Source: Candidatus Bipolaricaulota bacterium (GTDB taxonomy: Bacteria; Bipolaricaulota; Bipolaricaulia; UBA7950; UBA9294). From it: a DNA stretch of 64,000 bases. The notes below the pieces were generated by a model, which was given only the letters and a program-made list of their open reading frames with translations, searched no databases and was not told where the DNA came from. Of this stretch, positions 2,102 through 29,911 are shown in pieces. The position numbers were made by a program, and so were the translations under genes. The stretch's first letter is position 1; each line of letters begins with the position of its first letter. The DNA lies in contig JANQEA010000035.1 in the NCBI GenBank assembly GCA_028278555.1, forward strand, positions 152,089-216,088. The letters run 5' to 3'.

Positions 2102-2250
2102 GAGGCGGAAGTATTCGACGCGTGGCAGCTGTGAAACATCGACTTTCCACTCTCAGCGCTACGCTCACTCGACTCGCAGCGCCTGGAACACCGTCAGATC
2201 AACACTGTCTCTTCGAGCAGCGGCTTCTTGACTCTGATCGAAAGGATCAA

Positions 2251-3579
2251 CTACGGCAGCTTCTTGAGAATGGCCTTGATCTTCGAATCCAGCTTGTTCT
2301 TGAGAGTAGTGATGTTCGGGTAGAACACCACCGCGAAGTCCTTGATGTCGAAATGGAGCATCGTTCCTTCTCTTGCAGTAAAGATGACTCTCTTGTTGAC
2401 GCCGTGAGTGTATCCGATTTCGTAATAGACATTGGGTCTTTCGTGCGTGAGATCCGCAATGACGAATTGCGCTGAATCTATCGATTCCATGATCTTGTCA
2501 GTTATCTTCTCCGTATCCTCAACATCATCGACCCTGTAGGCCTTCAGATCGTTCTCTTCACATACCTCCTTGATCGCAGCGTGAACATCGTCCAGGCCTG
2601 GATCTTCCTTTGTCATGGCCATGATGATGAACACCTCTCTCGATAGCTGCGGTATCCCCGCACCGGTTTCTGCAGATGCCACAACTCCACCTCCCAATTC
2701 CCGATACAGATTAGCCAGCTTCTCCTGCTCAGCTGCAAGTTGGTGAGGTGTCTTCTTGCTTGAGTGCAAATCCTCGACCAGACTTGCAAGCCGAGCATAG
2801 CTCTGAAGCCATGCCTCTGCGATGAACCCAATCCAACGATTGTGATCCTCCACTTCGTCTACAGCGAGCAGTTCCTCGTAGTACTCAGCTCTGTTTCCCA
2901 GAAAGAAGCGATCGGTACCAATGAGCGTATGGTCGAGTCTGTATCCACCAATGAGCATAGCATAATTCGCTAGTAGACGCGCAACACGCCCGTTTCCATC
3001 TAGAAACGGGTGGATTCGGGCAATCCCGTAGTGCACAACAGCTGAGACTACCACCGGGTTAGCATCGGGATTGGATTTCACCCAGTGCAGCATAGCCTGG
3101 AGAGCAAGCGAAACTGTCTCTGGCTTCGGCGGAGTGTAGAGGATCTTGCGGTCCGGCATTCTGATAACGTAATTCTGTACTTCACGCAGCTTTCCTCCGC
3201 CGCTTCCGGGAGTGAGGCGTCGGTGGGCCTCCTGGATGAGCGGAAGACTGATGGGCGCGTCTTCTGCCGCACAATCCATTAGGTATTCGATCGCCTCTGC
3301 GTAAGCTTGAATCTCGTGTCCAGATACACCAGCATCGGGCGTGCGGATACCCCGGGGGATGCCCAGAGGGGTGTCTATCCCTGTAGCCGATAGGAACTCA
3401 CCAGATTGAAGAATGCTGATAATCTCGTCCCGGTTCTTGGAAATCGACAGTACTGTTTGAACGTAGGTGTAGTGACGCGTGATTCCCTGTAGCTTTGAGA
3501 CTAGATCAGGAGTGTAGCTGAACTCGATGCTGAAACTGTCAGTCATCTTGGACTCTGCGTTTCTCTCAACGACAGACAT
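2251..3579 (-). CDS. Fic-domain protein (predicted AMPylase / NMP-transferase) fused to a C-terminal TIR / nucleoside-2-deoxyribosyltransferase-like Rossmannoid domain
   Basis: The canonical Fic motif HPFLDGNGRVAR lies at aa 190-201 (nt 2977-3012). A coiled linker follows at aa ~270-314. The C-terminal ~125 aa read VFIIMAM...AYRVDDV...FVIADLTHERPNVYYEIGYTHGVNKRVIF...HFDI. This matches the hallmark pattern of TIR-like (COG4271/PF10137-type) and NDT-like domains (beta1 VFIxM, then DLT..PNV..E.G.A.G..K.VI). The start is either ATG 3579 or ATG 3546. Confidence 0.8.
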   Translation of the reverse strand: MSVVERNAESKMTDSFSIEFSYTPDLVSKLQGITRHYTYVQTVLSISKNRDEIISILQSGEFLSATGIDTPLGIPRGIRTPDAGVSGHEIQAYAEAIEYLMDCAAEDAPISLPLIQEAHRRLTPGSGGGKLREVQNYVIRMPDRKILYTPPKPETVSLALQAMLHWVKSNPDANPVVVSAVVHYGIARIHPFLDGNGRVARLLANYAMLIGGYRLDHTLIGTDRFFLGNRAEYYEELLAVDEVEDHNRWIGFIAEAWLQSYARLASLVEDLHSSKKTPHQLAAEQEKLANLYRELGGGVVASAETGAGIPQLSREVFIIMAMTKEDPGLDDVHAAIKEVCEENDLKAYRVDDVEDTEKITDKIMESIDSAQFVIADLTHERPNVYYEIGYTHGVNKRVIFTAREGTMLHFDIKDFAVVFYPNITTLKNKLDSKIKAILKKLP

Positions 3580-3601: not shown

Positions 3602-3865
3602 TCGAGCCTCCCTTCGCTGAACCCAGACTGCCGCCACATGTTCTGACTCTCTCCCATACCAGATTACCACTGGAACTCGCGCAGTGTAGGTTACCATTGT
3701 GGAGTACGTCGATCAATGCTCCGCCAGCGAGCCAACTTCCCCCCACCTCTTCAGCCTTGCTTGAGAATCGCAATCCCATCTCCCACAGGCCGCAGCGGCC
3801 TCTGAACGGCGCGGCGTATCTCGTACTACTCGTTGATGCCGTGCAGACAGAATGCCGCCTCCAGT

Positions 3866-4309: not shown

Positions 4310-4375
4310 TCCTGCGGATGAGGACTTGCTCGATCAAGAGCGACTACCATCCCGCTCGGAGCATCCCTGCAAGAT

Positions 4376-11451: not shown

Positions 11452-12267
11452 CTAGAAACCCCAAACGGTCGGATCGAACGTCGTCAGGCTGTCCGGCGAG
11501 AAGACCTCATCGGCGATCTCGGCGTCGGGCCGTCGACGCTCGATCAAGGTGATCAGCGTCGAGCTTTCGTCGAGCACATCGGTGCTCAGCATTTCCGCAA
11601 ACGTCAGCATCCCCTCGAACTCGGTCAGGGAGATGACTTCGATCGTCGACGAGAGGTTCCCGAGGTCGTTGTACGACTCGGCCTTCAGCATCAGGAACGC
11701 TTCGGTATCGACCCAGATGATCGAGCGGGGCGTATCGGTGTCGACGCCCTCCTTCGCGACCGATTCGATCACGTAGGCCATCCGCGTCTCCTCGCCGATC
11801 ACCAGCTCCTCCTCACGAAGGATCGTCGCCACGAAGTCGTCCCGGTCGTTCTCGCCACCGAGATCGTCGTACGACATCGAGCTCCCGGCAAAGCTGCCGC
11901 CGCGCTCCTCGTCCGAAACGAGTTCCTTCGGGATGCCGAGGAGCGGAAGGTAGAGCCAGAGGCGCGAGTCGTCGCCGTCATCGATCTCATGGGTCAGGAA
12001 GATCGTCCCGGCCACGTCGGTTGGCTCGATGAAGTAGATGAGCGAGAAGCCGGGCTTCGACAGCATCCCGAACAGGTTGCCTGAAGTCGTCCCGTCGCGG
12101 TACGTGTTGTCGAACCGAAGCGTCCCGATCATGCTCCCTTCGGCCAGCTTGTCGGCTTCCTCTTCCATCCGGTCGAGGATCTCGTCGGCGGTCAACGCCG
12201 CCGCCGCGAATCCCGCCAGAAGCACCATCACTGCCGTGATCGTCCAAACCATCGTCTTCTTGTACAT
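11452..12267 (-). CDS. LolA-like outer-membrane lipoprotein-sorting family protein (secreted)
   Basis: Signal peptide (VWTITAVMVLLAGFAAAALTA) followed by LTADEILDRM..., the typical opening of LolA_like (PF17131-type) proteins. It lies immediately downstream of an MMPL/RND exporter, a recurrent pairing. Confidence 0.75.
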   Translation of the reverse strand: MYKKTMVWTITAVMVLLAGFAAAALTADEILDRMEEEADKLAEGSMIGTLRFDNTYRDGTTSGNLFGMLSKPGFSLIYFIEPTDVAGTIFLTHEIDDGDDSRLWLYLPLLGIPKELVSDEERGGSFAGSSMSYDDLGGENDRDDFVATILREEELVIGEETRMAYVIESVAKEGVDTDTPRSIIWVDTEAFLMLKAESYNDLGNLSSTIEVISLTEFEGMLTFAEMLSTDVLDESSTLITLIERRRPDAEIADEVFSPDSLTTFDPTVWGF

Positions 12268-12313
12268 GTCGTTCCTCCCTAGGTGATCTACCTGAATTCG
12301 TTGATCTCGTTTG

Positions 12314-14611: not shown

Positions 14612-15114
14612 CGGATCCATCCCTTCGTCGAATAGGCGGCCCAGAGCAGGCCGGGCCAAAGGTCTTCGGTCACGTCAATCCCCTCGCCGATCCCGGCAAA
14701 AACCTGCTCGATGATTCCTGCGATTGCGTCGAGCCCGGCAGCCACGCTCGGCGACAGTGCGCTCATCCCGGCGCTGACGATCCATATGTGGCTCGCCGTT
14801 CCGTCGTCCAATCCTCTCGGAAGGATGACGATCAGGTCATACGGCTCCTCGTCCACGCCGGGGAGCCGGTCGGCAAGTGGGTCGTCGTAGCTCGACATCA
14901 CATCGGCGAGCGTGATCCCCACGTCGAACATCCCAACGGAGCGGAGCGCTCCGACCAATCCTGCGACGCGCATCGTCGAGTTGAACGTCTTTGTCTCGTC
15001 GACGACCAGCACCCTGACGAGGGGCGGAGCGTCCTGCGCGAGCCCGCCAAGCGGGATCGCGATCGCGACCATCATCAGCGCAATCAACAGAGCGTGCGAG
15101 CGTTTCGACATCAC
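14608..15114 (-). CDS. Secreted hypothetical protein (signal peptide), operon partner of the MMPL exporter
   Basis: N-terminal signal peptide (ALLIALMMVAIAIPLGGLAQD). It is overlap-coupled to genes on both sides (ATGA at 15111-15114 and 14608-14611). No family was recognised. Confidence 0.55.
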   Translation of the reverse strand: MMSKRSHALLIALMMVAIAIPLGGLAQDAPPLVRVLVVDETKTFNSTMRVAGLVGALRSVGMFDVGITLADVMSSYDDPLADRLPGVDEEPYDLIVILPRGLDDGTASHIWIVSAGMSALSPSVAAGLDAIAGIIEQVFAGIGEGIDVTEDLWPGLLWAAYSTKGWIR

Positions 15115-19269: not shown

Positions 19270-20910
19270 CTAGAGTTCGAGCGCCTGCCGCATCAGGCGC
19301 GGCGGGAGCGATCCTTGCGAGAGGAGGGTGTCGTGCATCTCGCGGAGGCTCGCGTCCGGATGCGCCTTCTTGTAGTCATCGATCAGATCGAGGATCTGGA
19401 GCTTCCCCATCAGATACGACTGGGGCTGCGTCGGCGTCTGCGTGTACCGCCGAACCTCGGCCGTCGCGTTTGCCGGCTCGAGCTGAACCTTCTCGACCAT
19501 GAAGTCGACCGCTTCCTGAACGGTCATTCCGCGGGTGTGAAGCGACACGTCGAGGATGATCCGCGCGGCACGCCAGAGCTGATCGTGAAGGCGTCCCAGC
19601 CGCTGGATCGGCTTGGCGATCCAGCCGAGCTGCTCCATCAGCTCTTCGCAGTAGAAGGCCCATCCCTCGATGAACAGCGTCGCCAGGAACGATCCCATCC
19701 GCCGCGGAATCGTTTCGGCTCGGTTCGCCCAGACGAGCTGCAAGTGATGCCCCGGATACGCCTCGTGGAGAGCGACAACGGGGAGCTTCACGTGGAAGTG
19801 CCCCTTCAGCTTCGCCTCCTTCTCCTCGTCCGACGCATTCGGATCGACCGGGGTGACGACGAAAATCCCATCCTGCTGTTCTTCGAAGATCCCGGCGTTC
19901 TGGTAGGCGGCGTAGGGGATGAGCGGGCGGATGTAGACGGGGGTCTCGATGATCTTGAGCGACTCGTCCTCGGGGATCGTGACGATCTCGTGATCGATCA
20001 CGTATTGCTTCGCACTCTCCATCGCCTCTTCGTACGCCCGGAGGAGTCCTTCGGCCGTCGGATGATCGTTCTTCGCTTCCTCGAGGAGCTCCTCGACCGA
20101 CTTCGTCGGATCGATCTCCTTCGCGACCTCCTCCATCTGCTTCTTGGTCAGCTCGAACTGCTCCCAGCCGACCTCGATCAATCGGTCGGCGTCGTAGTCG
20201 ACCATGTGGTTCTCGCGGAGGATCTCGTCGAAGAGTTCCTTCCCTACGGCGTACTCGCCTTCGGCGTTCGGGAGGACCTCGTCCCGGATGAACGCGACAT
20301 ACGCCTCCACGGCCTTCGCCGCCTCGGCGCCGACGGCGGCGATTTCCTCGGCGAGGTCGGGGGCCGCCTGCTGCGCAAGACCCGGCAGAAGCGCGCTGAA
20401 GAGCATCGGCGCCATCTGACCCTGTTCGAGTGCCGTCTCCGCCCAGACCCGCGGGACTTCGCTCGGTATGAGGACCGCCTTCGCCTCCTCGAGGACTCTC
20501 GGCACTTGGCGCGTCCGCTCGAGGGCCAGCTTCAACCGTTCGGGGAGCGGAGCGAAGTCCTTCATGAGAAGGAGGATCACGCTCCCGGTGGTCGCATCCA
20601 GGTATTGACCCGGGTTCCGGAACTGACCGCGCTGCTTCTCGTAGCCGCGGACGAAGCCTTTGAAGATCTGCGTCATCAGCGTGTGATCGACGACGGCATC
20701 GTTCGGCCAACCCGTTGTCTCCATCGCGCCCAGCTCGGTTAGGATCTCATGAATCTCTCCGTTCTGTGCATCCTGAGCCGCGCGTGTGAAATCGCCGAGT
20801 CGATCGTCGAAGCGATGATCTCCGAGTTGCGTCGCCGCGATCGGATTCAGCTCCATCAGCCGTTCGATCCAGGCGTCGGAGCGGTCGTAGAAGTGCTTCG
20901 GGTCCGTCAC
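19270..20910 (-). CDS. DUF885-family protein (putative metallopeptidase-like)
   Basis: The family signature HEAYPGHHLQ and overall length (546 aa) fit DUF885. The start is GTG with the SD AAGGAGG. Confidence 0.8.
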   Translation of the reverse strand: MTDPKHFYDRSDAWIERLMELNPIAATQLGDHRFDDRLGDFTRAAQDAQNGEIHEILTELGAMETTGWPNDAVVDHTLMTQIFKGFVRGYEKQRGQFRNPGQYLDATTGSVILLLMKDFAPLPERLKLALERTRQVPRVLEEAKAVLIPSEVPRVWAETALEQGQMAPMLFSALLPGLAQQAAPDLAEEIAAVGAEAAKAVEAYVAFIRDEVLPNAEGEYAVGKELFDEILRENHMVDYDADRLIEVGWEQFELTKKQMEEVAKEIDPTKSVEELLEEAKNDHPTAEGLLRAYEEAMESAKQYVIDHEIVTIPEDESLKIIETPVYIRPLIPYAAYQNAGIFEEQQDGIFVVTPVDPNASDEEKEAKLKGHFHVKLPVVALHEAYPGHHLQLVWANRAETIPRRMGSFLATLFIEGWAFYCEELMEQLGWIAKPIQRLGRLHDQLWRAARIILDVSLHTRGMTVQEAVDFMVEKVQLEPANATAEVRRYTQTPTQPQSYLMGKLQILDLIDDYKKAHPDASLREMHDTLLSQGSLPPRLMRQALEL

Positions 20911-20975
20911 GTCCCAACCTCCTTCTGATTCCTCATTTACATCTGTTTGTCGCAGCTCCGAAGCGTTCGGTTCAG

Positions 20976-21533
20976 CTAGACCTGATAACCGCTGATCTCA
21001 TCCTCCGTCGCCTCGACCCCGAGCCCGAGAACGATCCGGTTGACGAAGTTGAAGTAGGCGACAATCAGGGCGATTGAGAGGATGTCTTCATCGGAGAAGC
21101 CCGCTGTGCGGAGGGACTCGATGTCCTCCTCGATGACGTTCTCCGGGGTCTCGGTCAGCTTCTGCGCGTACTCGAGCGCGACCGTCATTTTCGGGCCGAC
21201 GTCGACCGCCTCGCGATCCTCGACGAAGCGGGCGAGACGTTCCGGATCGCGCCAGTAGTGTCCGAGCGCTTCGGCGTGATGGCGGATGCAATACGGACAG
21301 CGATTCGACGTCGAGACGACGACGGCGATCATCTCGCGCTCCTCGCGGGAGAGGTCGGACCGCGAGAACATCGTCGCCAGGTAGAGATCCATGTGCGCCG
21401 TCATCGCCTCCGGCCGAAGGCTGTGGACGGCCATGATGTTCGACAGCTTCCCGCGCTTCCCCTTGACCCTCTCGAACGCAGCGCGTAGTTCGTCGTCCGC
21501 CTCGTCTTCACCGATCACGCGGATCCAGGCCAT
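20976..21533 (-). CDS. Carboxymuconolactone decarboxylase / AhpD-like 'peroxidase-related enzyme'
   Basis: The CPYC redox motif sits in the context SNRCPYCIRHH. The N-terminus MAWIRVIGEDEAD is typical of the TIGR01926-type family. The start was chosen at ATG 21533. Confidence 0.8.
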   Translation of the reverse strand: MAWIRVIGEDEADDELRAAFERVKGKRGKLSNIMAVHSLRPEAMTAHMDLYLATMFSRSDLSREEREMIAVVVSTSNRCPYCIRHHAEALGHYWRDPERLARFVEDREAVDVGPKMTVALEYAQKLTETPENVIEEDIESLRTAGFSDEDILSIALIVAYFNFVNRIVLGLGVEATEDEISGYQV

Positions 21534-21622
21534 CGATGCCTCCTCAGTCTGGCAGAATGGTCCGATCATATCCCGCCTCTTAGTGCGCATCAGCCGCTAT
21601 CGATCTCGCTCGCTCGATAGCC

Positions 21623-21677
21623 TTGACAATCGAATTCCGGAGCGTATACTGCAGAGTACTTTGCGCTGCAAAGTACT
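21623..21677 (+). promoter_or_regulatory. Sigma70-type promoter plus perfect 10-bp inverted repeat (candidate operator) for the membrane-pair/HTH operon
   Basis: TTGACA (21623-21628), a 16-nt spacer and TATACT (21645-21650) are followed by AGTACTTTGC-gct-GCAAAGTACT (21655-21677), which overlaps the expected transcription start. ATG is at 21693. Confidence 0.45.
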
Positions 21678-21692
21678 TGACGGGAGAGAACT

Positions 21693-22352
21693 ATGAACCA
21701 ACTGAGTCTTCGAAACATCGAGCGCAAGAGCTGGCAAAGCACGATGGGCGGCGGGGTGATCGAGATCATGTTCGGGATCATGATGTTCGCCGGCGCGACG
21801 TCGTATCTCGTCTCCGATCTCGGCGCGCCATCCGCTGCGAGCACCGCTACGTTGATCGCCCTTCACGCCGTGGCGCTTCTATTGATGCTTTGGCTGCGGA
21901 AGCGATACGTCCTTCCGCGGGTCGGGCGGGCCGCCTTCTCGGCGAACCGAAAGCGGCGTCTCCATCGCATGCGGATCCTTCTGGGGATTTGCGTCGCGGT
22001 GACGGTCGCGCTCGTCGTGCTGACGGTCCTCGCAACGCGGACCGGGACCTCTCTCCTCGGGCCCGTTTCGGCCGCTCCCGTGGTTGCCGTCGTTGCCGTG
22101 ATCGTTCTCGTGCCGCTCGGCGCGCTCGCGATCTTCCTCGACTACCCTCGATTCCTCCTTCTTGGCGGATTGGTCGTCGGGGCGGAGGCGATCCTCGCGC
22201 TGCTCGACAAGTACGGTTCGCCGCCGTTCGACCGGACACTCGTCTTCGGCTCGATCGGCCTGATCAGTCTGATCCTCGGGTTGGTCATCTTCGCTCGCTT
22301 CCTCCGCCGCGTACCACGACCCGAACACGAGGTGATCGATCATGCCGGCTAG
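21693..22352 (+). CDS. Polytopic membrane protein, paralog 1 (unknown family)
   Basis: 219 aa with about 5-6 TM helices. Its N-terminal amphipathic segment SLRNIERKSWQS resembles LRELERRVWLRT of the next gene. Confidence 0.6.
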   Translation: MNQLSLRNIERKSWQSTMGGGVIEIMFGIMMFAGATSYLVSDLGAPSAASTATLIALHAVALLLMLWLRKRYVLPRVGRAAFSANRKRRLHRMRILLGICVAVTVALVVLTVLATRTGTSLLGPVSAAPVVAVVAVIVLVPLGALAIFLDYPRFLLLGGLVVGAEAILALLDKYGSPPFDRTLVFGSIGLISLILGLVIFARFLRRVPRPEHEVIDHAG

Positions 22353-22971
22353 TCCGGGATTGAGGGAACTCGAGCGGCGCGTCTGGCTGCGGACATTCGA
22401 ACACGGGCTCTGGGACGTCGCCATCGGCCTGCTGTTACTGGCGTTCGGGATCGGCATCCTGACGGAGTTCTACTGGCTCTCCGCCATCATCGTTCCGGTC
22501 AGCCTGCCTGCGATGCGAGACCTTGCCCGACGGGCGATTGTCCCGAGGATCGGGCACGCGACGTTCCGCGGGCGGCGAAAGAGGAGCCTTGTTCACGTTC
22601 AGCTGATCCTGACCGGCCTCGCCGTCGCCGGTGCCGGGATGTTCGCGTTCACGAGCTTCGCGTCACGGGGGACGGCGCCCGACTGGATGCTCTGGATACG
22701 GTCTCACTTCATCGTCGTCATCGGGCTGATCTGGGGCGGGGCACTCGGCGTCGCCGGGTGGACCGTCGATTTTCCCCGTCTCTACGCGTACGGCGCGATC
22801 CTCTTCGGAGCTCTGCTCGCCGTCGACCTCATCCCATCCGGCTACCACCTTGCCCACGCGCTGATCGCCGTCGGCGGACTGATCGCGCTCGTCGGGGCCG
22901 CGCTGTTCATCCGCTTCACCCGTCGGTATCCGCGTCACCCCAAACCGCTCGAAGGAGCGGCCGATGACTGA
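22342..22971 (+). CDS. Polytopic membrane protein, paralog 2 (unknown family)
   Basis: 209 aa with the same topology as, and recognisable similarity to, the preceding gene. It overlaps both neighbours (11 nt and 8 nt). Confidence 0.6.
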   Translation: MPASPGLRELERRVWLRTFEHGLWDVAIGLLLLAFGIGILTEFYWLSAIIVPVSLPAMRDLARRAIVPRIGHATFRGRRKRSLVHVQLILTGLAVAGAGMFAFTSFASRGTAPDWMLWIRSHFIVVIGLIWGGALGVAGWTVDFPRLYAYGAILFGALLAVDLIPSGYHLAHALIAVGGLIALVGAALFIRFTRRYPRHPKPLEGAADD

Positions 22972-23284
22972 GGCGGAGCGCGACGATGCCCGCGGCCTGC
23001 AGATCGACCGCGCGATTCACGAGCCAGCACGCCTGCTGATCACCGCCCACCTCTACGTCGTCGAATCGGCCGACTACGTGTTCCTGATGGGGAACACCGG
23101 CCTGACATGGGGAAACCTCTCGTCGCACCTCTCCAAATTGGAGGCCACCGGCTACGTCGAGATCACCAAGGAGTTCGTCGAGAAGAAACCGCACACGATG
23201 GTCAAGCTGACGGAAGAAGGCCGGACGGCGTTCGACACCTATCGCCGCCAGATGAAGGCCCTGTTCGAGGATCTCCCGGACTGA
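22964..23284 (+). CDS. Winged-helix transcriptional regulator (HTH_34 / PF13601-like)
   Basis: IHEPARLLITAHLY...FVFLMGNTGLTWGNLSSHLSKLEATGYVEITKEFVEKKPHTMVKLTEEGRTAF matches the HTH_34 consensus pattern (hePvRL...GNLs.Hl.kLe.aGYv...K.f.grkP.T...lT..Gr.af). Confidence 0.8.
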   Translation: MTEAERDDARGLQIDRAIHEPARLLITAHLYVVESADYVFLMGNTGLTWGNLSSHLSKLEATGYVEITKEFVEKKPHTMVKLTEEGRTAFDTYRRQMKALFEDLPD

Positions 23285-23316
23285 CAAGCGCAACCACCCG
23301 ATGGAGGAGGTGACCT

Positions 23317-23400
23317 ATGGAAGGAACCACGTGGATCCTGATCGGCCTCGGCGTTCTCGCCGTGATCGGCGCGATTATCCTCCTGTCACAGGCGAAGTAG
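23317..23400 (+). CDS. Candidate 27-aa single-TM micropeptide (MEGTTWILIGLGVLAVIGAIILLSQAK)
   Basis: A strong SD GGAGGAGG (23303-23310) precedes ATG 23317. The ORF has a hydrophobic core and a basic C-terminus and ends at TAG 23398-23400. It is absent from the ORF track because of its size. Confidence 0.35.
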   Translation: MEGTTWILIGLGVLAVIGAIILLSQAK

Positions 23401-23729
23401 AACATCTGGTCCGCCCGGTCGTTCTTCTTACGGCCGGGCATCTGTTTCCTCGACCGGATCGGCAATCCGAGATCGACGGCCAGGCTTCCGGACAGAAGGA
23501 CGGCGTCGATCACCCGGCTGAAGCTACCGGAACGTAAGCTTCACGGAACCGAGGTCGACTCGGACTCTCCAGCCTGTAGCCCCTATCGTGATGTACACAA
23601 CGACGTTCATGTCCCTCCTTGCACATCCAAGCGGTTCTCAGGACTGGCTCGTGAAGGTCGCATGCCGATTGCAGTGTAAGACCCAACCCTAATTCCGCGT
23701 AGCTCGTCTGTTCACATGAATGCTCAGAT

Positions 23730-23759
23730 TTGACATTCACAGAACTTCCATGATATACG
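23730..23759 (+). promoter_or_regulatory. Possible sigma70-type promoter of the glycine-rich protein gene
   Basis: TTGACA (23730-23735) is followed 16-18 nt later by a -10-like gATATAC region (23752-23759), in an AT-rich 380-nt non-coding stretch. Confidence 0.35.
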
Positions 23760-23782
23760 GTCCCTGATTTCGACTATGGGAG

Positions 23783-25789
23783 ATGGTTCAAATGTCGAAA
23801 CTCGGGAAACGCATCTGCGTTGTGTGCGCGATCATCCTTGTGGCAGCTGTTGCTATGACCTGCGTTGCGCAGGAGTACGGAAAGGATAACCCACAAGCGT
23901 GGGGCGGATACCCTGAGGGATACAAGTTTGGTGCTGATGGAACCCAGCCGGATCATCCTGACGGATACGACGGCTGGCCAGCAGACCATCCCAACAATCC
24001 CAACAAGGGCTACGCCGGCAAAGGCGGCAAGGGCGCGGACGCGACTAAAGAAGGCCACGCAGCTGGGAATGGAGGGAAGGGTGGTGCTGGACCAAAGAAT
24101 GATGATGGCCCCCTTAATTCCTGGAACGGCGGCAAAGGCGGAGCCGGCGGAGGCAGCTCAGTTCCGGGAATACGCGGTGGAAATGGCGGCAAAGGCGGCG
24201 ATTCCACACACGGAGCCGGAGGCGATGGCGGCAATGGCGGCGATGGCGGCGAGGACGATGTGACGGTGAAGCACTCCGCCGGCGGTAACGGCGGCAAAGG
24301 CGGAGACAGCGTCAACGGTAACGGCGGCAAGGGCGGAGACGCTGGGAAGGGTAGCGACAGTGCGCCCGGCGGAAACGGCGGCGACGGAGGCACCAGCATT
24401 CATAAGACAGGAGGAGCGGGGGGTGACGGCGGCGACGGCGGCAGCAATGGCGAGGGTGGCAACGGAGGAAGTGGCGGTCACACGAGACATGGGACGGGCG
24501 GACCGGGCGGCAATGGCGGAAACGGCGGCGCGAGCAAGATTCCAGGACAGAAGGGAAAGACGGGAGGTGAGGGCGGCGATGGCGGCAATGGGTATGTCGG
24601 CGGTCCCTGCGACAAGGTAGGTAACGGGGCCGGAGGCAAGGGCGGACAAGGCGGGCAAGGCGGCGCGGGTTACTCTGGCGACGATGAGAACGACGCAACG
24701 GGCGGCGGGGATGGTGGGAAAGGCGGGGCCGGAGGAAATGCCGGAGACGGGGAAGATGCATCCGCGGGCAATGGCGGGGATGGTGGGAAAGGCGGCACAG
24801 CGAACAAGAAACCTGCAATTGGGGGCACTGGCGGGAAGGGTGGCAAGGGCGGCCGCTCTGGGCTCGGCAACAAAGGCGGCACTGGCGGAAAGGGTGGACC
24901 AGGAGGAGATGGACCAGACAAGCATGGCGGAGAAGGCGGGGCTCCTGGTGAAGGCGGAGACTATTCCCCATCTGGCCCCATGAAGCCTGGCAAAGGAGGC
25001 ATGGGTGGCAGCGGCGGAAAGGGAAGCCCCGAAAAAAAGGATCGAAGTCGTGAGAGAGGTGCCTCCGGCTCTTGTGTGAGATACGTCTGCCTTCCCTTCT
25101 CAGGTTTCGGATGGGAACGGGCTTGGACCTCGGACACTGATCGGGCCGAGTGTGTTGGCTTGGGCCTTTGCTGCGTCGGCCTAGATGTGGGCGTCGAAGT
25201 CGTGACAGTCGACCATGCCGGAATGCTGTCCGACATCATAGATCTCACACCACTGCTAGGCTGGTGGAGCAGCGAGTCGTACTCCCCGATGATCGGCGTG
25301 GCCATCACTGCGCTTCTCCCGGAATGCGGAACCGGGCTACCTCTTGTCGACATAGCCTATGGCTCGGCCAGCATCCCTGTGAGTGGTCACGCCGAGTGGA
25401 TCCTCGAAGATTCCGATTATGGACTCGCGGAGATCCAGGGCATCCTTGGCATAACCCGTGCGTCCTTGGGATTCGGGATGCGCATCGGTGCACTCTGCGA
25501 ATGCCCTGTGCTGACACCGTACGTCGACCTCAAAGCGGGAATCGCACAGTCGTGGTTAGAGTTCGAGGATGTCCAATCCGGGATGGATTCGGTAGATCTG
25601 CGGACACTGCTAGAAACTAACACAAGTGCTATCACACAGTACTACGTGCAAGCTTCCATGGGAGCCTCGTTCTCACTCGGTCCACAGCTTGACCTTCGTC
25701 TTGTCGGGACTGGAAGGATCTCGGGGGGAGCGGATCAATCAACCCATTTCGAGTTCGGGGGAAGTCTGTCACTGGGGCTCCGCTTCTAG
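23783..25789 (+). CDS. Secreted glycine-rich repeat protein with a C-terminal beta-barrel-like (OMP/autotransporter-like) domain
   Basis: Signal peptide (KRICVVCAIILVAAVAMTCVAQE). About 340 aa consist of (GGX)n blocks such as GGNGGKGGD. A Cys-rich junction follows. The C-terminal ~240 aa have alternating hydrophobic beta-strand-like patterning and end in ...GGSLSLGLRF with a terminal Phe. Confidence 0.7.
   Translation: MVQMSKLGKRICVVCAIILVAAVAMTCVAQEYGKDNPQAWGGYPEGYKFGADGTQPDHPDGYDGWPADHPNNPNKGYAGKGGKGADATKEGHAAGNGGKGGAGPKNDDGPLNSWNGGKGGAGGGSSVPGIRGGNGGKGGDSTHGAGGDGGNGGDGGEDDVTVKHSAGGNGGKGGDSVNGNGGKGGDAGKGSDSAPGGNGGDGGTSIHKTGGAGGDGGDGGSNGEGGNGGSGGHTRHGTGGPGGNGGNGGASKIPGQKGKTGGEGGDGGNGYVGGPCDKVGNGAGGKGGQGGQGGAGYSGDDENDATGGGDGGKGGAGGNAGDGEDASAGNGGDGGKGGTANKKPAIGGTGGKGGKGGRSGLGNKGGTGGKGGPGGDGPDKHGGEGGAPGEGGDYSPSGPMKPGKGGMGGSGGKGSPEKKDRSRERGASGSCVRYVCLPFSGFGWERAWTSDTDRAECVGLGLCCVGLDVGVEVVTVDHAGMLSDIIDLTPLLGWWSSESYSPMIGVAITALLPECGTGLPLVDIAYGSASIPVSGHAEWILEDSDYGLAEIQGILGITRASLGFGMRIGALCECPVLTPYVDLKAGIAQSWLEFEDVQSGMDSVDLRTLLETNTSAITQYYVQASMGASFSLGPQLDLRLVGTGRISGGADQSTHFEFGGSLSLGLRF
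24005..25034 (+). repeat. Degenerate tandem coding repeats (GGC/GGA-rich, encoding about 14 GGxGGxGG blocks)
   Basis: Recurrent ggcggcaa(a/g)ggcgg(a/c)ga-type units occur throughout. The antisense frames read as Pro-rich pseudo-ORFs. Confidence 0.6.
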
Positions 25790-25976
25790 AGTCTTGAGTT
25801 GGGAGGGTCTCAGAGGTACAGGCACAAGTTCCCGGAAGCCAAGCCTGTGGCTACTGGTGAAGGTGGCCCAGGGCCGATGACGCAATACGCCGGAGGTTCA
25901 GTCATTGCATTCATGATGGGCCACTTGTCTTGGCGGCTGGACTCCCGCCGCCAGAATTCGCGCAACGTGAACTGCG

Positions 25977-26924
25977 CTACTTGTACCGAATTCTCGGATT
26001 GACGGCGGCGTAGAGGATGTCGGCGAGCAGGTTGGCGAAGACAACGCCGATGACGACGACGATCGCGATCGCCTGGAGGAGCGGGAAGTCGCGCCGGTCG
26101 ATCGCGAAGAGGAGCAGCCGGCCGAGCCCCGGGTAGTTGAAGACGTTCTCGATGACGATGATCCCGCCGATCAGCCAGCCGAAGCTGATCGCGATCACCG
26201 TGATCGTCGGGAGGAGGGCGTTCCGCAGAACGTGCTTGAAGACGACGATCCACCTCGGGAGCCCTTTCAAGACGGCCGTCCGCACGTATGGCCGACGCAT
26301 CTGCTCAGCAACCTCGGCGCGGGTCAGCCGCGCGATGTACGCGAGGAGGACGAACGTCGCCGTCAGCGACGGGAGGATGAGGAACGGAAGCGCCTCCCAG
26401 AAGCCGGTCCCCGGCGCGATCGGCGAGCTCGCCGGGAGGAGATCGAGCCGGTGCGCGAGAAGCTCGATCAGCAGGACGCCGGTGACGAACTCGGGGAGAC
26501 CGACAACCGCCAGGCTTCCGAGGCTGATCACGTGATCGGCGATCCCGTGCTCCCGGAGTCCGGCCCAGACGCCGAGGACGACGGAGAGCGGCACGGCGAG
26601 GACGAGGGCGACGACTGCAAGCATCAGCGAATTGCGGAGCCGTTCGACGACAAGCGGTCGAACCGGAAGATCGGTCCCGAATGACGTCCCCCAGTCGCCG
26701 CGGACGAACCGTCCAAGCCACGACCCGTACTGCACGATCGCCGGTCGATTGAGGCCGAGCTCTTCGCGGAGCGCGGCGACCGCTTCCTCGCCGGCTTCGC
26801 GCCCGAGGATCACCCGCGCGACGTCCCCGGGAAGGAACTGTGTCGCCGCGAAGATCAACGCCGACGTCAACAGAAGCGTCAGCAGAAGGAAGCCGAGCCG
26901 CTGGATCAGAAGGCGTCCCATCAT
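25977..26924 (-). CDS. Peptide/nickel-type ABC transporter permease (DppB/OppB-like)
   Basis: 315 aa. The N-terminus LLIQRLGFLLLTLLLTSALIFA and the EAA-loop region (YVRTAVLKGLP) are typical of DppB/OppB. Confidence 0.9.
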   Translation of the reverse strand: MMGRLLIQRLGFLLLTLLLTSALIFAATQFLPGDVARVILGREAGEEAVAALREELGLNRPAIVQYGSWLGRFVRGDWGTSFGTDLPVRPLVVERLRNSLMLAVVALVLAVPLSVVLGVWAGLREHGIADHVISLGSLAVVGLPEFVTGVLLIELLAHRLDLLPASSPIAPGTGFWEALPFLILPSLTATFVLLAYIARLTRAEVAEQMRRPYVRTAVLKGLPRWIVVFKHVLRNALLPTITVIAISFGWLIGGIIVIENVFNYPGLGRLLLFAIDRRDFPLLQAIAIVVVIGVVFANLLADILYAAVNPRIRYK

Positions 26925-29911
26925 GCATCTCCTTCGAAGAGCGGCTTCTGCATCCCCCGGAGCTCCGCGACCGGGATATGGCAGAAGATCGCGTGCCCCG
27001 ATTCATCCTGCTGCCACGGGGGAATCTCCTCGACGCAGATCGGCCCGATCCTTCGCGGACATCGCGTGTGGAATGGGCAGCCGCTCGGCCGATCGATCGG
27101 ACTTGGGATTTCGCCTTCGAGGCGAACTGCTTCCCGACCAGTCCCGCCTCCGATCGTCGGGACCGCTGACAAGAGCGCCTCCGTGTACGGGTGGTACGGC
27201 GGCGCGAAGATCTCCTCAACGCTTCCGATCTCCATCAGCCTTCCCAGATAGAGAACAGCGATGTCGTCGGAGAGATGCGAGACAACGGCCAGATCGTGGG
27301 TGATGAACAGATGTGCGCTGTCCCCGCCCGACTGGAGCTCGTCGAGAAGGTTGAGGATCCGCGCCTGGACCGAGACATCGAGCGACGAGGTCGCTTCGTC
27401 GAACAGAACGAGATCCGGACCGGCGGCAATCGCACGGGCGATCGCGACGCGCTGTTTCTCGCCGCCGGAAAGCTGATCGGGCAGCCGTGACGCGTAGGCC
27501 GCCGAGAGGCCGACGCGATCGAGAAGATCGTTCATCCGCAGGCGGACCTCGCGTCGGCCGACCTCGCCCAATCGGATCAGCGGGCGGACGAGCGTCGCTC
27601 CGACCGACAGATGCGGGTTAAGCGCCTGATCCGGATTCTGAGAGACCGACTGCAGGCGCCGGAGGGTTCCGCGCTTTCGCCCCCGGAGACCCGGGGGAAG
27701 AAGTTCATCGTCGAGGTGGATCGCGCCGGCATGGCGCGGTTCCAAGCCGAGGATCGTTCGGGCGAGCGTCGTCTTCCCGGATCCGCTCTCGCCAACCAGC
27801 CCGAGCGTCCCCCCCTCGTCGATCGACAGACTGACCCGATCGACCGCCCGGACGGCACGGCGCTCCCGGCGGCGGACTACGTCAATCAAGGAGCGGGAAA
27901 TCGGGAAGCTCGCCTCAACGCCCTCCACGCGGAGGACGGTCTTCTGGCGTTTCGTTCGGCGCTCTGGCGCCTCGCCGACGAAATCGGACTCCCAGTCCGC
28001 CTGAGAGATTTCCGCCCAACGATGACAGCGGACCGTGCGTCCGCCGTCGATCGACTCGAGGAGTGGTCGCTCCTCGCAGACCCCCGCCGCCCACGGGCAT
28101 CGCGGGCGGAAGACGCAGCCGATCGGAATCGCGTCGAGCGCCGGGATCGATCCCTCCATCGACGACAGTCGCGCGCCCCGAGCCTCTGCGCGGGGGAGGC
28201 TCGCCAGCAGTCCGGCCGTGTACGGATGGCGCGCGTTCCTCAGGAGCGCATCCGTCGGACCGGCTTCGACAAGCTCCCCGGCGTACAGAACGGCAACGTC
28301 GGTCGCGACACGCGCAATCACCCCGAGATCGTGTGTGATGTAGAGGGTTGACCGGTCTCCCTCCTGAAGAAGGTCGGCGATCAGGTCGAGGATCGTTGCC
28401 TCCGTCGTCACGTCGAGCCCGGTCGTCGGCTCGTCGAAGAGAAGAAGGCGCGGCGATGTCGACAGGCCCATCGCGATCGCCACCCGCTGCTGCATCCCGC
28501 CGGAGAGCTGGTGCGGATACCGGCGGGCAACGCGCTCCGGATCGGCGATCTGCACGCTCCGAAGAAGCTCGGTCGCCGCGCCCCGGGCCTCCTTCCGGAG
28601 CAGCGACCCATGTTGTCGAAGAATCTCAGCGATCTGTTCGCCGACCCGGATCGATGGATTGAGCGAGGCGAGCGGATCCTGCGGAACCAGACCGATCTCG
28701 GCGCCCCGGATGGCGCGCAGCTCGCGGGAAGAGAGCCCGAGCAGATCCTTCCCGTCGAAGCGAATCCCTCCGGCGCGGACCGCCCCGTTCGCCGCCAGGT
28801 ACTGCGCGAAGGCGAGGGCCAACGTCGACTTCCCCGACCCGCTCTCGCCGACCACGCCGAGCGTCTCGCCTAGGCGGAGTTCGAGATCGACGTCGCGGAC
28901 CGCGTCGAGCCATCGACCCTCTTGGAAGTACGAGACGGTCAACTGCTCGATCGACGCAATGGCCTCTCCGTTCTCGGCTGGTAATTCTGAGCCTCTCCCG
29001 GCGGACGTCCGCGCACGGAGGATCCTCCGTCGGGCTCGGGGAGAGAGCGATTCGGTCGTCGGACGAAGGGCTGTCTTCAGTCCGTCGGCGGTCAGATTGA
29101 CGCCGACGACCAGCAGCGAGATCGCTCCGGCCGGGAAGTAGAGCGACCACGGCGCAAGCCGGATGTAAATCCGCGCCTCCTTGACCATCAGGCCCCAATC
29201 CGGGCTCGGCGGCTGGACGCCAACCCCGAGAAAGCCGAGGGATGCTATGAGGAAAATCCCGTACGAGAACCGAAGGGCCGCTTCGACTGACAATGCTGGG
29301 AGGACGGACGGGAGGATCTCGCGAAGGAGGATCCACGGGAGTCGCTCGCCCCGGAGGCGGGCGGCCTCGATGAATCCGAGTGACTTGATCGCCAGGGTCT
29401 CGCTCCGGACGACGCGCGCGACGATCGGCGTGTAAACGACGGCGATCACCGCGAGAACGCTCGCCTGTGACGGACCGACCGTCCCGAGGAGGACGAGCGC
29501 AAGGAGGAGGGCCGGGATCGCGAGGAGGCTGTCAAAGACGCGCATCAACAGCTCGTCGAACAGCCCGCCGACGTATCCTGCGAGGAGCCCGAAGAGCGTC
29601 CCGGCCGTTACCGCAAGGAGGGCACCGAGCCCGGTCAGCGAGAGGATGCTCCGCGCCCCGTAAACGATCCGGCTGAAGACGTCCCGCCCGAGGTGATCGG
29701 TCCCGAACCAGTGCGCCGTCGACGGTGCCTGCCGCGCGTCGGCGTAGATCTGCTCTGTCGGTCCGTACGGCGCGATCCACGGCGCGAGGATCGCAAGAAG
29801 GACGAACAGGCAGACGATGCTCGCCCCGAACGCCGACGACGGTTTCCGATACAGGTCACGCAACACCCTGATCACCGGCCACCGCCCGCGCTTCATCTCA
29901 GAACAGTCCAT
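26921..29911 (-). CDS. Triple-fusion ABC component: DppC-like permease + two ABC ATPase domains (DppD-like and DppF-like)
   Basis: This is a single uninterrupted 996-aa frame. aa 1-~300 form the permease (WFGTDHLGRDVFSR, EAA-like IEAARLRGE). aa ~330-640 form ATPase 1 (GESGSGKST, LSGGMQQR, LLFDEPTT). aa ~690-996 form ATPase 2 (GESGSGKTT, LSGGEKQR, VLFDEATS) with a Cys-containing oligopeptide_C tail. It has an ATGA overlap with the downstream permease. The exact start is uncertain. Confidence 0.85.
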   Translation of the reverse strand: MDCSEMKRGRWPVIRVLRDLYRKPSSAFGASIVCLFVLLAILAPWIAPYGPTEQIYADARQAPSTAHWFGTDHLGRDVFSRIVYGARSILSLTGLGALLAVTAGTLFGLLAGYVGGLFDELLMRVFDSLLAIPALLLALVLLGTVGPSQASVLAVIAVVYTPIVARVVRSETLAIKSLGFIEAARLRGERLPWILLREILPSVLPALSVEAALRFSYGIFLIASLGFLGVGVQPPSPDWGLMVKEARIYIRLAPWSLYFPAGAISLLVVGVNLTADGLKTALRPTTESLSPRARRRILRARTSAGRGSELPAENGEAIASIEQLTVSYFQEGRWLDAVRDVDLELRLGETLGVVGESGSGKSTLALAFAQYLAANGAVRAGGIRFDGKDLLGLSSRELRAIRGAEIGLVPQDPLASLNPSIRVGEQIAEILRQHGSLLRKEARGAATELLRSVQIADPERVARRYPHQLSGGMQQRVAIAMGLSTSPRLLLFDEPTTGLDVTTEATILDLIADLLQEGDRSTLYITHDLGVIARVATDVAVLYAGELVEAGPTDALLRNARHPYTAGLLASLPRAEARGARLSSMEGSIPALDAIPIGCVFRPRCPWAAGVCEERPLLESIDGGRTVRCHRWAEISQADWESDFVGEAPERRTKRQKTVLRVEGVEASFPISRSLIDVVRRRERRAVRAVDRVSLSIDEGGTLGLVGESGSGKTTLARTILGLEPRHAGAIHLDDELLPPGLRGRKRGTLRRLQSVSQNPDQALNPHLSVGATLVRPLIRLGEVGRREVRLRMNDLLDRVGLSAAYASRLPDQLSGGEKQRVAIARAIAAGPDLVLFDEATSSLDVSVQARILNLLDELQSGGDSAHLFITHDLAVVSHLSDDIAVLYLGRLMEIGSVEEIFAPPYHPYTEALLSAVPTIGGGTGREAVRLEGEIPSPIDRPSGCPFHTRCPRRIGPICVEEIPPWQQDESGHAIFCHIPVAELRGMQKPLFEGDA

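What the first reader, a model, noticed from the sequence alone, without database searches (positions are those of the whole stretch)
23783..25789. PGRS-like (GGX)n glycine-repeat passenger fused to a C-terminal beta-barrel-like domain
Seen: a signal peptide, then about 340 aa built of about 14 blocks of GGxGGxGG(x) (for example GGNGGKGGD, GGDGGNGGDGG, GGKGGQGGQGG) separated by 5-12-residue linkers rich in D/K/S/H. A junction containing six Cys follows (CVRYVCLPF...ECVGLGLCCVG). The last ~240 aa have alternating-hydrophobicity strands and end ...SLSLGLRF. Established: a C-terminal aromatic residue/Phe beta-signal is typical of BAM-assembled outer-membrane barrels and of autotransporter translocators. 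GGxGGx repeats are best known from mycobacterial PE_PGRS proteins, and similar triplet glycine repeats form polyglycine-II helix bundles in some phage adhesins and antifreeze proteins. Inference: this looks like a surface-displayed glycine-repeat adhesin, Ca-binding module or decoy on an autotransporter-like anchor. I do not recognise that combination. The gene and its flanks (23400-23780, 25790-25975) also look compositionally different from the core.
Basis: partly seen in the sequence, partly recalled or inferred. Interest (0 to 1): 0.6.

Follow-up and report, generated by a model that had tools for sequence, protein, structure and literature searches.

The report
Glycine-repeat protein on small membrane barrel
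A horizontally acquired gene in an uncultured Acetothermia/Thermotoga-like bacterium joins an undescribed glycine-repeat module, probably a flat polyglycine-II sheet, to a small 8-stranded outer-membrane-type barrel; this is not an autotransporter, and the combination was not found anywhere else.

Summary
ORF 23783..25789 (+) probably starts at the ATG at 23792. It encodes a signal peptide, 18 (GGx)n blocks (0 of 5000 shuffles reach this), a junction with five Cys (not six), and a C-terminal domain ending in Phe. An independently assembled contig is 100% identical, so the repeat is not an assembly artefact.

The autotransporter reading is not supported.
- There is no PF03797 hit and no helical linker.
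- The barrel family has only two relatives among 1.84 billion representative proteins.

The N-terminal part belongs to an unannotated module family: a conserved 45-aa cap (YPxGYxFGxDG...DGWPxDHPNNP) followed by GGx blocks. Elsewhere this module is fused to dockerin, PT-HINT or large secreted proteins. The best structural hit is a nine-helix polyproline-II antifreeze bundle, but the match is marginal.

The gene sits on a 2.5-kb island (GC3 0.61 against 0.72-0.87 in neighbours) that is replaced by another gene in a related MAG.

The even-stranded barrel places the glycine domain on the periplasmic side. This suggests an OmpA/OmpM-like anchor or tether rather than a displayed passenger. That step is inferred, not shown.

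The parts
23440..25976 (.). 2.5-kb compositional island carrying the gene. It lies between the terminator of the HTH_34 operon and the stop codon of the opp-type permease.
   Evidence: Synteny with the related MAG locus L002 holds for window 22370-23439 and 25974-29860. The stretch between them is replaced in L002 by 1.2 kb carrying a different ORF. Gene GC3 is 0.61 against 0.72-0.87 in neighbours, and flank GC is 0.545/0.594.
23413..23439 (+). Terminator-like hairpin ending the upstream HTH_34 unit. It marks the left edge of the island.
   Evidence: 10-bp stem with 8 G-C pairs. Synteny with L002 stops at 23439.
23730..23759 (+). Possible sigma-70-like promoter: TTGACA, N18 containing TG, then TATACG.
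   Evidence: Read by eye. The consensus scan did not call it because position 6 of the -10 hexamer is G. Weak.
23778..23782 (+). Shine-Dalgarno-like GGGAG.
   Evidence: It lies 9 nt upstream of ATG 23792 and abuts ATG 23783.
23783..25789 (+). The ORF: 668 aa from the first ATG, probably 665 aa from ATG 23792.
   Evidence: Both halves have homologues elsewhere in this reading frame.
23783..23869 (+). Sec-type signal peptide (aa 1-29). No canonical lipobox.
   Evidence: Sequence inspection. Homologues of both halves also begin with signal peptides.
23894..24034 (+). Conserved 'cap' of the glycine module (aa 38-84): QAWGGYPEGYKFGADGTQPDHPDGYDGWPADHPNNPNKGYAGKGGKG.
   Evidence: Shared with P0003-P0008 (E 1.6e-10 to 2.4e-4) and with 12 metagenome loci. 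Invariant Y, Y, G, G, G, D, G, P, H, P, N, P columns in alignment A5. No Pfam or NCBIfam family.
24071..25024 (+). Glycine-repeat tract (aa 97-414): 18 (GGx)2-4 blocks separated by 3-17-aa loops. Predicted polyglycine-II / PPII helix sheet.
   Evidence: The top Foldseek PDB hit is 7jjv_B, a nine-PPII-helix antifreeze protein (E 1.1e-3, prob 1.0). The last ~8 blocks have pLDDT below 50.
25025..25072 (+). Charged linker SPEKKDRSRERGASGS (aa 415-430).
25073..25177 (+). Cys- and aromatic-rich junction (aa 431-465) with five Cys.
   Evidence: pLDDT below 50 in both models. Only its last ~6 residues align to the barrel homologues.
25178..25786 (+). C-terminal 8-stranded beta-barrel domain (aa 466-668), ending S-L-G-L-R-F.
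25992..26017 (.). Right arm of a weak 26-nt inverted repeat (left arm 23447-23472) that brackets the island.
   Evidence: 73% complementary. The arms sit at the synteny breakpoints. This may be chance.

Best explanation
This is a real, horizontally acquired gene for a Sec-exported outer-membrane protein made of two modules.

(1) The C-terminal ~203 aa fold into an 8-stranded OmpA/OmpX/OmpW-class beta-barrel. The barrel is inserted into the toga-type outer membrane of an Acetothermia/Bipolaricaulota-like (or Thermotogae-labelled) host and serves only as an anchor.

(2) The N-terminal ~385 aa belong to an unannotated domain family: a conserved 45-aa aromatic/Pro/Asp cap followed by (GGx)3-4 blocks. 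The blocks most likely stack as antiparallel polyglycine-II helices into a flat, two-layered, highly hydrophilic plate, with K/D/N side chains pointing outwards.

An even-stranded BAM-type barrel has both ends in the periplasm, and an 8-stranded barrel has no lumen for a passenger. The glycine plate and the Cys-rich junction are therefore most likely held on the periplasmic face of the outer membrane. That arrangement resembles OmpA in reverse order, or OmpM, where a periplasmic module is tied to a barrel. It points to a binding or tethering role towards the wall or another envelope partner.

What is shown: the gene, the island, the repeat statistics, the two homologous families, and the modularity.
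What is predicted: the barrel fold and the PGII fold.
What is inferred: the membrane location, the orientation and the tether function.
For: Gene and tract:
- ORF and repeat statistics.
- An identical, independently assembled contig.
- Both halves have homologues in this reading frame. The barrel matches P0001 at 7.8e-14 and P0002 at 1.6e-6; these are the only hits among 1.84 billion representatives, and both carry the domain at their own C-termini. The cap plus GGx module matches P0003-P0008 and 12 metagenome loci.

Barrel:
- The AF2 model has 8 long strands.
- The strand connections are 22, 7, 5, 7, 18, 4 and 5 aa. With the C-terminus periplasmic, both long connections fall on the extracellular side and all periplasmic turns are 7 aa or shorter.
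- The strand faces are amphipathic, with the polar face rich in Gly/Ser, and the chain ends in Phe.

PGII fold:
- Blocks are mostly 9-12 residues, that is 3-4 triplets. This matches the 3-4 triplets per helix described for PGII sandwiches (PMC9436101).
- The two-thirds-Gly pattern fits the double-layer rule (bioRxiv 10.1101/2023.11.25.568672).
- The model has no alpha or beta structure, with pLDDT 60-82 over the first ~10 blocks.
- The top PDB hit is the PPII-bundle antifreeze 7jjv_B.

Host:
- Neighbouring genes are 92-93% identical to 'uncultured Thermotogae' MAGs and 67% identical to a Candidatus Acetothermia MAG.

Island:
-.
Against: - The models are of modest quality. The barrel model has pLDDT 65 from a 3-sequence alignment, and the other four models score 29-52. 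The full-length model scores 53, with the last ~8 glycine blocks and the junction below 50.
- The PPII hit is marginal (E 1.1e-3, TM 0.40 on the target).
- No sequence link to any known OMP family was found. Pfam and NCBIfam gave nothing at E<=10. A PDB profile search gave nothing relevant. hhalign against OmpX and OmpA gave probability 1% or less.
- In every other context, the cap plus GGx module sits in proteins that look extracellular (dockerin, PT-HINT, large secreted proteins). That fits a surface role at least as well as a periplasmic one.
- The taxa of the two barrel homologues are unknown, so I cannot show that they come from diderms.
- No outer-membrane biogenesis gene lies in the window itself.
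- The function is entirely inferred.
Confidence: 0.5

Rival explanations
1. One reading: the glycine repeat is a surface-displayed passenger (adhesin or decoy), exported through or alongside its own C-terminal barrel in a type V-like (autotransporter or Hop-like) manner.
For: - The order N-terminal passenger then C-terminal barrel, with a terminal Phe.
- Elsewhere the cap plus GGx module is attached to dockerin, PT-HINT and large secreted proteins, which are typical extracellular contexts.
- The barrel homologues P0001 and P0002 carry ~140-aa N-terminal domains of unknown family, with a DDNxNGKLD loop that I read as possibly Ca-binding. That would also suit surface modules.
Against: - The barrel has 8 strands, not 12, and the best matches are OmpA/OmpX/NspA/OmpW/TtoA. 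An autotransporter barrel (EspP in the BAM-EspP complex 7ye6_P) appears only far down the Foldseek list, at E about 1.
- No PF03797 hit at E<=10.
- No alpha-helical linker is predicted; the junction is short and Cys-rich.
- In P0001 and P0002 the N-domain joins strand 1 through only ~10 residues.
- No N-terminal beta-strand follows the signal peptide, as the interrupted Hop-type barrel would need. That comparison rests on my own knowledge of Coppens et al. 2018.
Confidence: 0.17
2. The glycine tract is not a folded PGII plate. It is an intrinsically disordered, hydrophilic spacer or brush attached to the barrel.
For: - The last ~8 blocks (mature residues 241-400) have pLDDT below 50.
- Linkers are irregular, 3-17 aa.
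- The PPII-bundle hit is marginal.
- The tract has very low hydrophobicity (GRAVY -1.16) and almost no aromatics.
Against: - The triplet register is strictly kept, and block lengths of 9-12 residues far exceed shuffles (0 of 5000).
- A conserved, well-aligned cap precedes the repeats in proteins from organisms with GC of 33% to 74%, which argues for a folding unit.
- pLDDT is 60-82 for the cap and the first ten blocks from only an 8-homologue alignment.
- Known (GGx)n tracts of this kind fold.
Confidence: 0.15
3. The C-terminal domain is a soluble 8-stranded barrel (avidin, YceI, lipocalin or hemophilin-like), and the whole protein is a secreted or periplasmic soluble protein.
For: - There is no sequence similarity to any OMP family.
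- Alternating hydrophobicity alone cannot tell a membrane barrel from a soluble one.
- The taxa of the homologues are unknown, and one homologue sits in a WD40/IS200 context.
Against: - Strands of 12-24 residues are much longer than in avidin-type barrels.
- The polar faces are rich in Gly/Ser/Thr, as in narrow OMP lumens.
- The terminal Phe is conserved in all three family members.
- The pattern of long and short connections fits OMP topology.
Confidence: 0.12
4. It is an artefact: a chimeric or mis-assembled repeat, or a decaying non-functional insert.
For: - Codon usage is foreign.
- The exact protein is not on record in the protein collection.
- No near-full-length homologue exists.
Against: - An independent Logan contig is 100% identical over 8.5 kb spanning both island junctions.
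- The ORF is intact at 2 kb, has an SD at the right distance, and has two independently conserved halves.
- The DNA repeats are too degenerate to collapse in assembly.
Confidence: 0.03

Closest known systems
Small 8-stranded outer-membrane barrels (OmpA N-domain, OmpX, NspA, OmpW, PagL, Thermus TtoA, Legionella porin III)
   Same: - Signal peptide, terminal Phe and short periplasmic turns.
   Different: - No detectable sequence relationship.
- The family has only three known members.
- It carries a large N-terminal extra domain, whereas OmpA carries its extra domain C-terminally.
Glycine-rich polyproline-II / polyglycine-II helix bundles (springtail antifreeze proteins, phage S16 gp38 tip, ALK/LTK glycine-rich domain, Obg N-domain)
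   Same: - GGx triplet blocks of 3-4 turns separated by loops.
- Two-thirds Gly, as expected for a two-layer sheet.
- The top structural hit is 7jjv_B.
   Different: - It is much larger: 18 putative helices against 6-9 in the antifreeze proteins.
- The faces are K/D/N-rich rather than Ala/Thr ice-binding faces.
- A conserved aromatic/Pro/Asp cap is not described for those domains.
- The context is bacterial, secreted and membrane-anchored.
- No sequence homology.
Mycobacterial PE_PGRS (PGRS domain)
   Same: - Long GGx-based repeat predicted as a flat PGII 'sail'.
- Variable numbers of helices.
- Associated with an outer membrane.
- Can carry other modules (PMC9436101).
   Different: - No PE domain, no GRPLI linker and no ESX signal; it uses a Sec signal peptide instead.
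- The repeat lacks the hydrophobic/aromatic edge (aromatics 1.2%) that is proposed to insert into the mycomembrane.
- Anchoring is by a beta-barrel.
- The cap is different and the phylum is different.
OmpM / Thermotoga Omp-alpha + Omp-beta / OmpA-type outer-membrane tethers
   Same: - A periplasm-facing non-barrel module tied to an outer-membrane barrel.
- N-terminal module then C-terminal barrel, as in OmpM.
- The host clade uses such systems.
   Different: - No SLH, coiled-coil or OmpA_C domain.
- The barrel is 8-stranded, not porin-sized.
- Binding to the cell wall is untested.
- The gene is a strain- or lineage-specific island, not a core envelope gene.
Type Va autotransporters
   Same: The order signal peptide, N-terminal repetitive region, C-terminal barrel ending in Phe.
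   Different: - An 8-stranded barrel instead of a 12-stranded one.
- No PF03797.
- No pore-spanning helix.
- No beta-helical passenger.

Membership tests
Type Va autotransporter | C-terminal 12-stranded translocator barrel (Pfam PF03797) | tested here: not met
   [not shown]
Type Va autotransporter | Alpha-helical linker that runs through the barrel pore | tested here: not met
   The 40 residues before strand 1 are predicted unstructured (pLDDT below 50) with no helix. In the homologues the linker is about 10 residues.
8-stranded outer-membrane barrel (OmpA/OmpX/OmpW class, MBB superfamily) | Closed 8-stranded antiparallel barrel fold | tested here: met
   [not shown]
8-stranded outer-membrane barrel (OmpA/OmpX/OmpW class, MBB superfamily) | Sequence membership in a curated OMP family (PF13505, PF01389, PF03922 and others) | tested here: not met
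   No hits in Pfam or NCBIfam. The PDB profile search was empty. hhalign against OmpX and OmpA gave probability 1% or less.
8-stranded outer-membrane barrel (OmpA/OmpX/OmpW class, MBB superfamily) | Signal peptide, C-terminal aromatic beta-signal, and a host with an outer membrane and BAM | tested here: inconclusive
   The signal peptide and the terminal Phi-x-F are seen in all three family members. The host's outer membrane is inferred from neighbour-gene similarity to Thermotogae- and Acetothermia-labelled MAGs and from the literature. It is not shown by genes in this window.
8-stranded outer-membrane barrel (OmpA/OmpX/OmpW class, MBB superfamily) | Actual integration in the outer membrane | not testable with these tools
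   This needs fractionation and heat-modifiability experiments.
Polyglycine-II / PPII helical bundle domains | Runs of GGx (or GxG) triplets 3-4 turns long, separated by loops, with Gly about two-thirds within the runs | tested here: met
   18 blocks, of which 15 have at least 3 triplets; 0 of 5000 shuffles reach this.
Polyglycine-II / PPII helical bundle domains | Packed antiparallel PPII helices in the 3D structure | tested here: inconclusive
   The model lacks alpha and beta structure, with pLDDT 60-82 over the first ~10 blocks. The top Foldseek hit is 7jjv_B, but E is only 1.1e-3 and TM 0.40. The last 8 blocks are of low confidence. Coordinates could not be inspected.
PE_PGRS | N-terminal PE domain with ESX secretion signal and GRPLI linker | tested here: not met
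   No Pfam PE hit. The N-terminus is a Sec signal peptide followed by the YPxGY...DHPNNP cap.
RTX / HemolysinCabind Ca-binding beta-roll | Tandem GGxGxDxUx nonapeptides with a hydrophobic residue at position 8 | tested here: not met
   GGxGxD occurs 11 times, but only one site has the hydrophobic position. No PF00353 hit.
OmpM-like tether | SLH domain (PF00395) fused or adjacent to the barrel | tested here: not met
   No SLH hit in the protein or in its immediate neighbours.
Cap + (GGx)n module family (unnamed; defined here) | Conserved ~45-aa cap [YW]-x-YPxGYxFGxDG-x5-6-G-x-DG[WY]PxDHPxNP, immediately followed by GGx blocks | tested here: met
Twelve further metagenome loci also carry it.

The most novel reading that the evidence does not exclude
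The cap + (GGx)n unit is a widespread, so far undescribed, envelope-binding domain built from polyglycine-II helices. In this bacterium it has been fused to an orphan 8-stranded barrel to create a new kind of tether between the outer membrane and the cell wall (or toga), taking the role that SLH plays in OmpM or that OmpA_C plays in OmpA. In other bacteria the same module would hold secreted enzymes, dockerin proteins and HINT-toxin precursors at the cell surface.
Probability: 0.15. Interest if true: 0.75.

Novelty: new variant of a known kind. Interest (0 to 1): 0.5.

Why it matters
Folded polyglycine-II bundles are rare. Only a handful of structural classes are known, and none is reported as a modular secreted bacterial domain outside mycobacterial PGRS.

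Three points follow from this locus.
- The cap plus GGx module recurs across metagenomes with GC from 33% to 74% and with different partner domains. It could be defined as a new domain family.
- The barrel is an orphan family with only three known members.
- The fusion sits in a toga-bearing, deep-branching lineage whose outer-membrane proteome is almost unknown.

If the glycine plate proves to be a wall- or surface-binding unit, it would add a new way to attach things to bacterial envelopes. It would also offer a naturally soluble, hydrophilic PGII scaffold for protein design. If not, this remains one more lineage-specific outer-membrane protein on a small genomic island.

Tried and rejected
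Family and homology searches:
- Pfam and NCBIfam scans of the whole protein, the C-terminal 243 aa and the cap: no family at E<=10.
- Word-index homology search with the C-terminal domain: nothing. A profile of the three barrels found only the same two proteins.
- PDB sequence searches with the repeat region and with the barrel profile: only chance hits.

Collection scans:
- Scan of 185,579 species genomes for the barrel: no relative.
- Viral contig scans for the cap module and for the barrel: none. A phage origin is therefore not supported.
- blastn of the island against plasmids: only GGC-rich low-complexity matches.
- Exact-sequence look-ups of the 668-aa and 665-aa proteins: not on record, although the identical DNA is on Logan contig L022.
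- The afdb50 fold library was unavailable, so no AlphaFold-DB neighbours could be listed.

Ideas considered and rejected:
- RTX beta-roll, because the hydrophobic position is missing.
- Collagen-like triple helix, because the pattern is GGx rather than GXY and there is no Pfam Collagen hit.
- Lipoprotein, because there is no canonical lipobox.
- Ice-binding function, because the faces are K/D/N and the host lineage is reported from anaerobic digesters and deep-sea serpentinite systems.
- Paralogues in the window or in related loci: none.
- The reverse-strand ORFs across the repeat (for example 24158..24925) are by-products of the GGC-rich coding strand. Only the + frame has homologues.
Full report
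**What is there.**

The window holds an intact ORF at 23783..25789 on the + strand, 668 aa. The only Shine-Dalgarno-like GGGAG (23778-23782) abuts the first ATG and lies 9 nt upstream of the second ATG, at 23792. A public contig with identical DNA was gene-called from that second ATG, giving 665 aa. The real start is therefore probably 23792. I keep the 668-aa numbering throughout.

The parts of the protein are as follows:
- a Sec-type signal peptide, aa 1-29;
- a non-repetitive aromatic/Pro/Asp-rich segment, aa 30-95;
- a glycine tract, aa 97-414;
- a charged linker SPEKKDRSRERGASGS;
- a final 203 residues ending GGSLSLGLRF.

The glycine tract has 18 blocks of at least two GGx triplets, and 15 of them have at least three. 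In 5000 shuffles of the same composition, none reached these counts; the means were 8.1 and 1.6. The x positions are mostly K, D, N and A. Linkers are 3-17 residues. Aromatics make up 1.2% of the tract.

**Is it an artefact?**

At the DNA level the repeats are short (17-43 nt) and only 63-88% identical, so assembly collapse is unlikely. A Logan contig assembled from run SRR20820740 is 100% identical to window 19977-28433. That span includes the whole gene and both of its flanks.

**Genomic setting.**

The window is ordinary chromosome. It carries pyruvate kinase, a V/A-ATPase subunit, an Opp-type ABC transporter, DinB, MMPL plus a LolA-like protein, and TldD/PmbA.

The neighbouring permease is 92-93% identical to two MAGs labelled 'uncultured Thermotogae bacterium' and 67% identical to a Candidatus Acetothermia MAG. 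Window GC is 63%, close to the 64.5% reported for the first cultured Bipolaricaulota strain.

The literature describes this lineage as follows:
- It is Gram-negative with a toga-like outer membrane (bioRxiv 10.1101/2025.11.21.689855).
- It has split OmpM-like Omp-alpha/Omp-beta proteins (bioRxiv 10.1101/2021.05.31.446380).

Synteny with the related MAG locus L002 holds on both sides: window 22370-23439 and 25974-29860. The 2.5 kb between them is replaced in L002 by 1.2 kb carrying an unrelated secreted ORF on the other strand. The left breakpoint falls exactly at a strong terminator hairpin, 23413-23439.

The gene's GC3 is 0.61, against 0.72-0.87 for eight neighbouring genes. The flanks have GC 0.545 and 0.594.

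**The C-terminal domain.**

No Pfam or NCBIfam model matches it at E<=10. A word-index search of 5.8 billion proteins found nothing, and a scan of 185,579 species genomes found nothing.

A full phmmer search of 1.84 billion representative proteins found exactly two relatives: P0001 (376 aa, E 7.8e-14) and P0002 (377 aa, E 1.6e-6). Both match at their own C-termini and both end in Phe. Each has a signal peptide and an unrelated ~140-aa N-terminal domain. The barrel is thus a tiny orphan family that carries interchangeable N-terminal domains.

AlphaFold2 with this 3-sequence alignment gave a moderate model: pLDDT 65 and pTM 0.59. The other four models were worse. The model has eight long strands.

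Soluble avidin-type barrels scored about 11. Foldseek against viral models also found OMP-like barrels.

Each predicted strand has one aliphatic face and one Gly/Ser/Thr/charged face. The connections between strands are 22, 7, 5, 7, 18, 4 and 5 residues. If the C-terminus is periplasmic, as is established for BAM substrates, both long connections are extracellular and all periplasmic turns are 7 residues or shorter. The N-terminus of strand 1 is then periplasmic.

None of this fits an autotransporter translocator, which has 12 strands, a pore-filling helix and PF03797.

**The N-terminal part.**

A search with aa 1-425 found six proteins (E 1.6e-10 to 2.4e-4). They share more than glycine repeats. 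All have a well-conserved ~45-residue cap, [YW]-x-YPxGYxFGxDG...G-x-DG[WY]PxDHPxNP, directly followed by GGx blocks.

A degenerate-pattern scan of metagenome contigs found 12 further loci, from organisms with GC between 33% and 74%. The module appears in three arrangements:
- right after a signal peptide, followed by an unknown domain and a type I dockerin (L016, L018 and, by eye, P0005-P0008);
- followed by a pretoxin HINT domain (P0004);
- at the extreme C-terminus of large secreted proteins (P0003; the 1161-aa L010 ORF).

It has no Pfam or NCBIfam family, no PDB sequence relative, and none was found on viral contigs.

The block length of 3-4 triplets and the two-thirds-Gly pattern are those of two-layer polyglycine-II / PPII helix sandwiches (PMC9436101; bioRxiv 10.1101/2023.11.25.568672).

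The full-length AF2 model used 9 sequences and reached pLDDT 53. It gives pLDDT 60-82 for the cap and roughly the first ten blocks, with no alpha or beta secondary structure. Its best Foldseek PDB match is the nine-PPII-helix springtail antifreeze protein 7jjv_B (E 1.1e-3, probability 1.0, TM 0.40). The last eight blocks and the junction are of low confidence. The PGII fold is therefore likely but not established.

**How it most likely works.**

The protein is exported by Sec. The barrel is inserted into the outer membrane and acts as an anchor. The glycine module folds into a flat, very hydrophilic plate. From 18 helices of about 30 A in two layers, I estimate about 35 x 45 x 10 A.

The barrel is even-stranded and too narrow to pass a chain. 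The default topology therefore puts the plate and the Cys-rich junction on the periplasmic face. This is the same logic as in OmpM (SLH plus barrel), LptD or BamA (N-terminal periplasmic domains), or OmpA in reverse order.

In other proteins the module sits where cell-surface retention or scaffold modules usually sit. From that I infer a binding or tethering role towards an envelope polymer or partner. This last step is inference only.

The extracellular flavour of the module's other contexts keeps the surface-display rival alive (0.17). Two further rivals cannot be excluded with these tools: a disordered spacer (0.15) and a soluble barrel (0.12).

**Comparison with known systems.**

It works like an OmpA/OmpX-class anchor carrying a PGII-bundle domain. 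It is not a member of any of the following:
- the autotransporter family, because the defining barrel and linker were tested and not met;
- PE_PGRS, because there is no PE domain, export is by Sec, there is no hydrophobic edge, and the cap is different;
- RTX, because only one complete GGxGxDxUx site was found;
- OmpM, because there is no SLH domain;
- any curated OMP sequence family.

The combination of cap + GGx module with this barrel was not seen in any other sequence examined.

**Verdict.**

This is a new variant of known kinds, made of an undescribed glycine-module family and an orphan small barrel. It is of moderate interest, and the evidence is limited by modest model confidence and by the absence of any functional data.

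Noticed in passing
window 2001-4700: A second low-GC stretch (0.52-0.55, against 0.63-0.66 around it) carries a Fic/DOC-domain ORF at 2251..3579 (-). It is probably another acquired island.
   Followed up: no
L002 11182-11991 (+): In a related MAG, the same slot between the HTH_34 unit and the opp permease holds a different, unannotated 251-269-aa ORF. It has a signal peptide or lipoprotein-like N-terminus and beta-rich sequence. The slot seems to collect envelope proteins.
   Followed up: partly
window 26921-29911 (-): A single 996-aa ORF fuses an OppC-type permease with two OppD/OppF-type ATPase domains. The same fusion is present in the related MAGs.
   Followed up: no
window 23447-23472 and 25992-26017: An imperfect 26-nt inverted repeat (73% complementary) brackets the island at the synteny breakpoints. 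The right arm lies inside the 3' end of the permease gene. It could be a relic of insertion or chance.
   Followed up: no
window 23317-23400 (+): A 27-codon ORF encoding a hydrophobic peptide (MEGTTWILIGLGVLAVIGAIILLSQAK) follows the HTH_34 gene and precedes the terminator hairpin at 23413-23439.
   Followed up: no
L023 1719-2375 (-) and 8165-8562 (+): On a 10-kb IMG contig, the P0001-type barrel gene lies next to an IS200-like Y1 transposase. A HicA/HicB-like pair and WD40 proteins are nearby. A WD40 fragment also flanks P0002 on L009. The barrel family may travel in mobile or variable regions.
   Followed up: partly
L008 1527-1811 and L023 3851-4135: On both contigs of that cluster, a 94-aa ORF directly follows the P0001-type barrel gene. 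Its function is unknown.
   Followed up: no
window 11452-14659 (-): An MMPL/RND-type transporter (781 aa) is paired with a LolA-like protein (PF17131).
   Followed up: no
P0001 / P0002 N-terminal ~140 aa: The two barrel homologues carry an unannotated N-terminal domain with a DDNxNGKLD loop that looks like a Ca-binding site. There is no Pfam hit.
   Followed up: no
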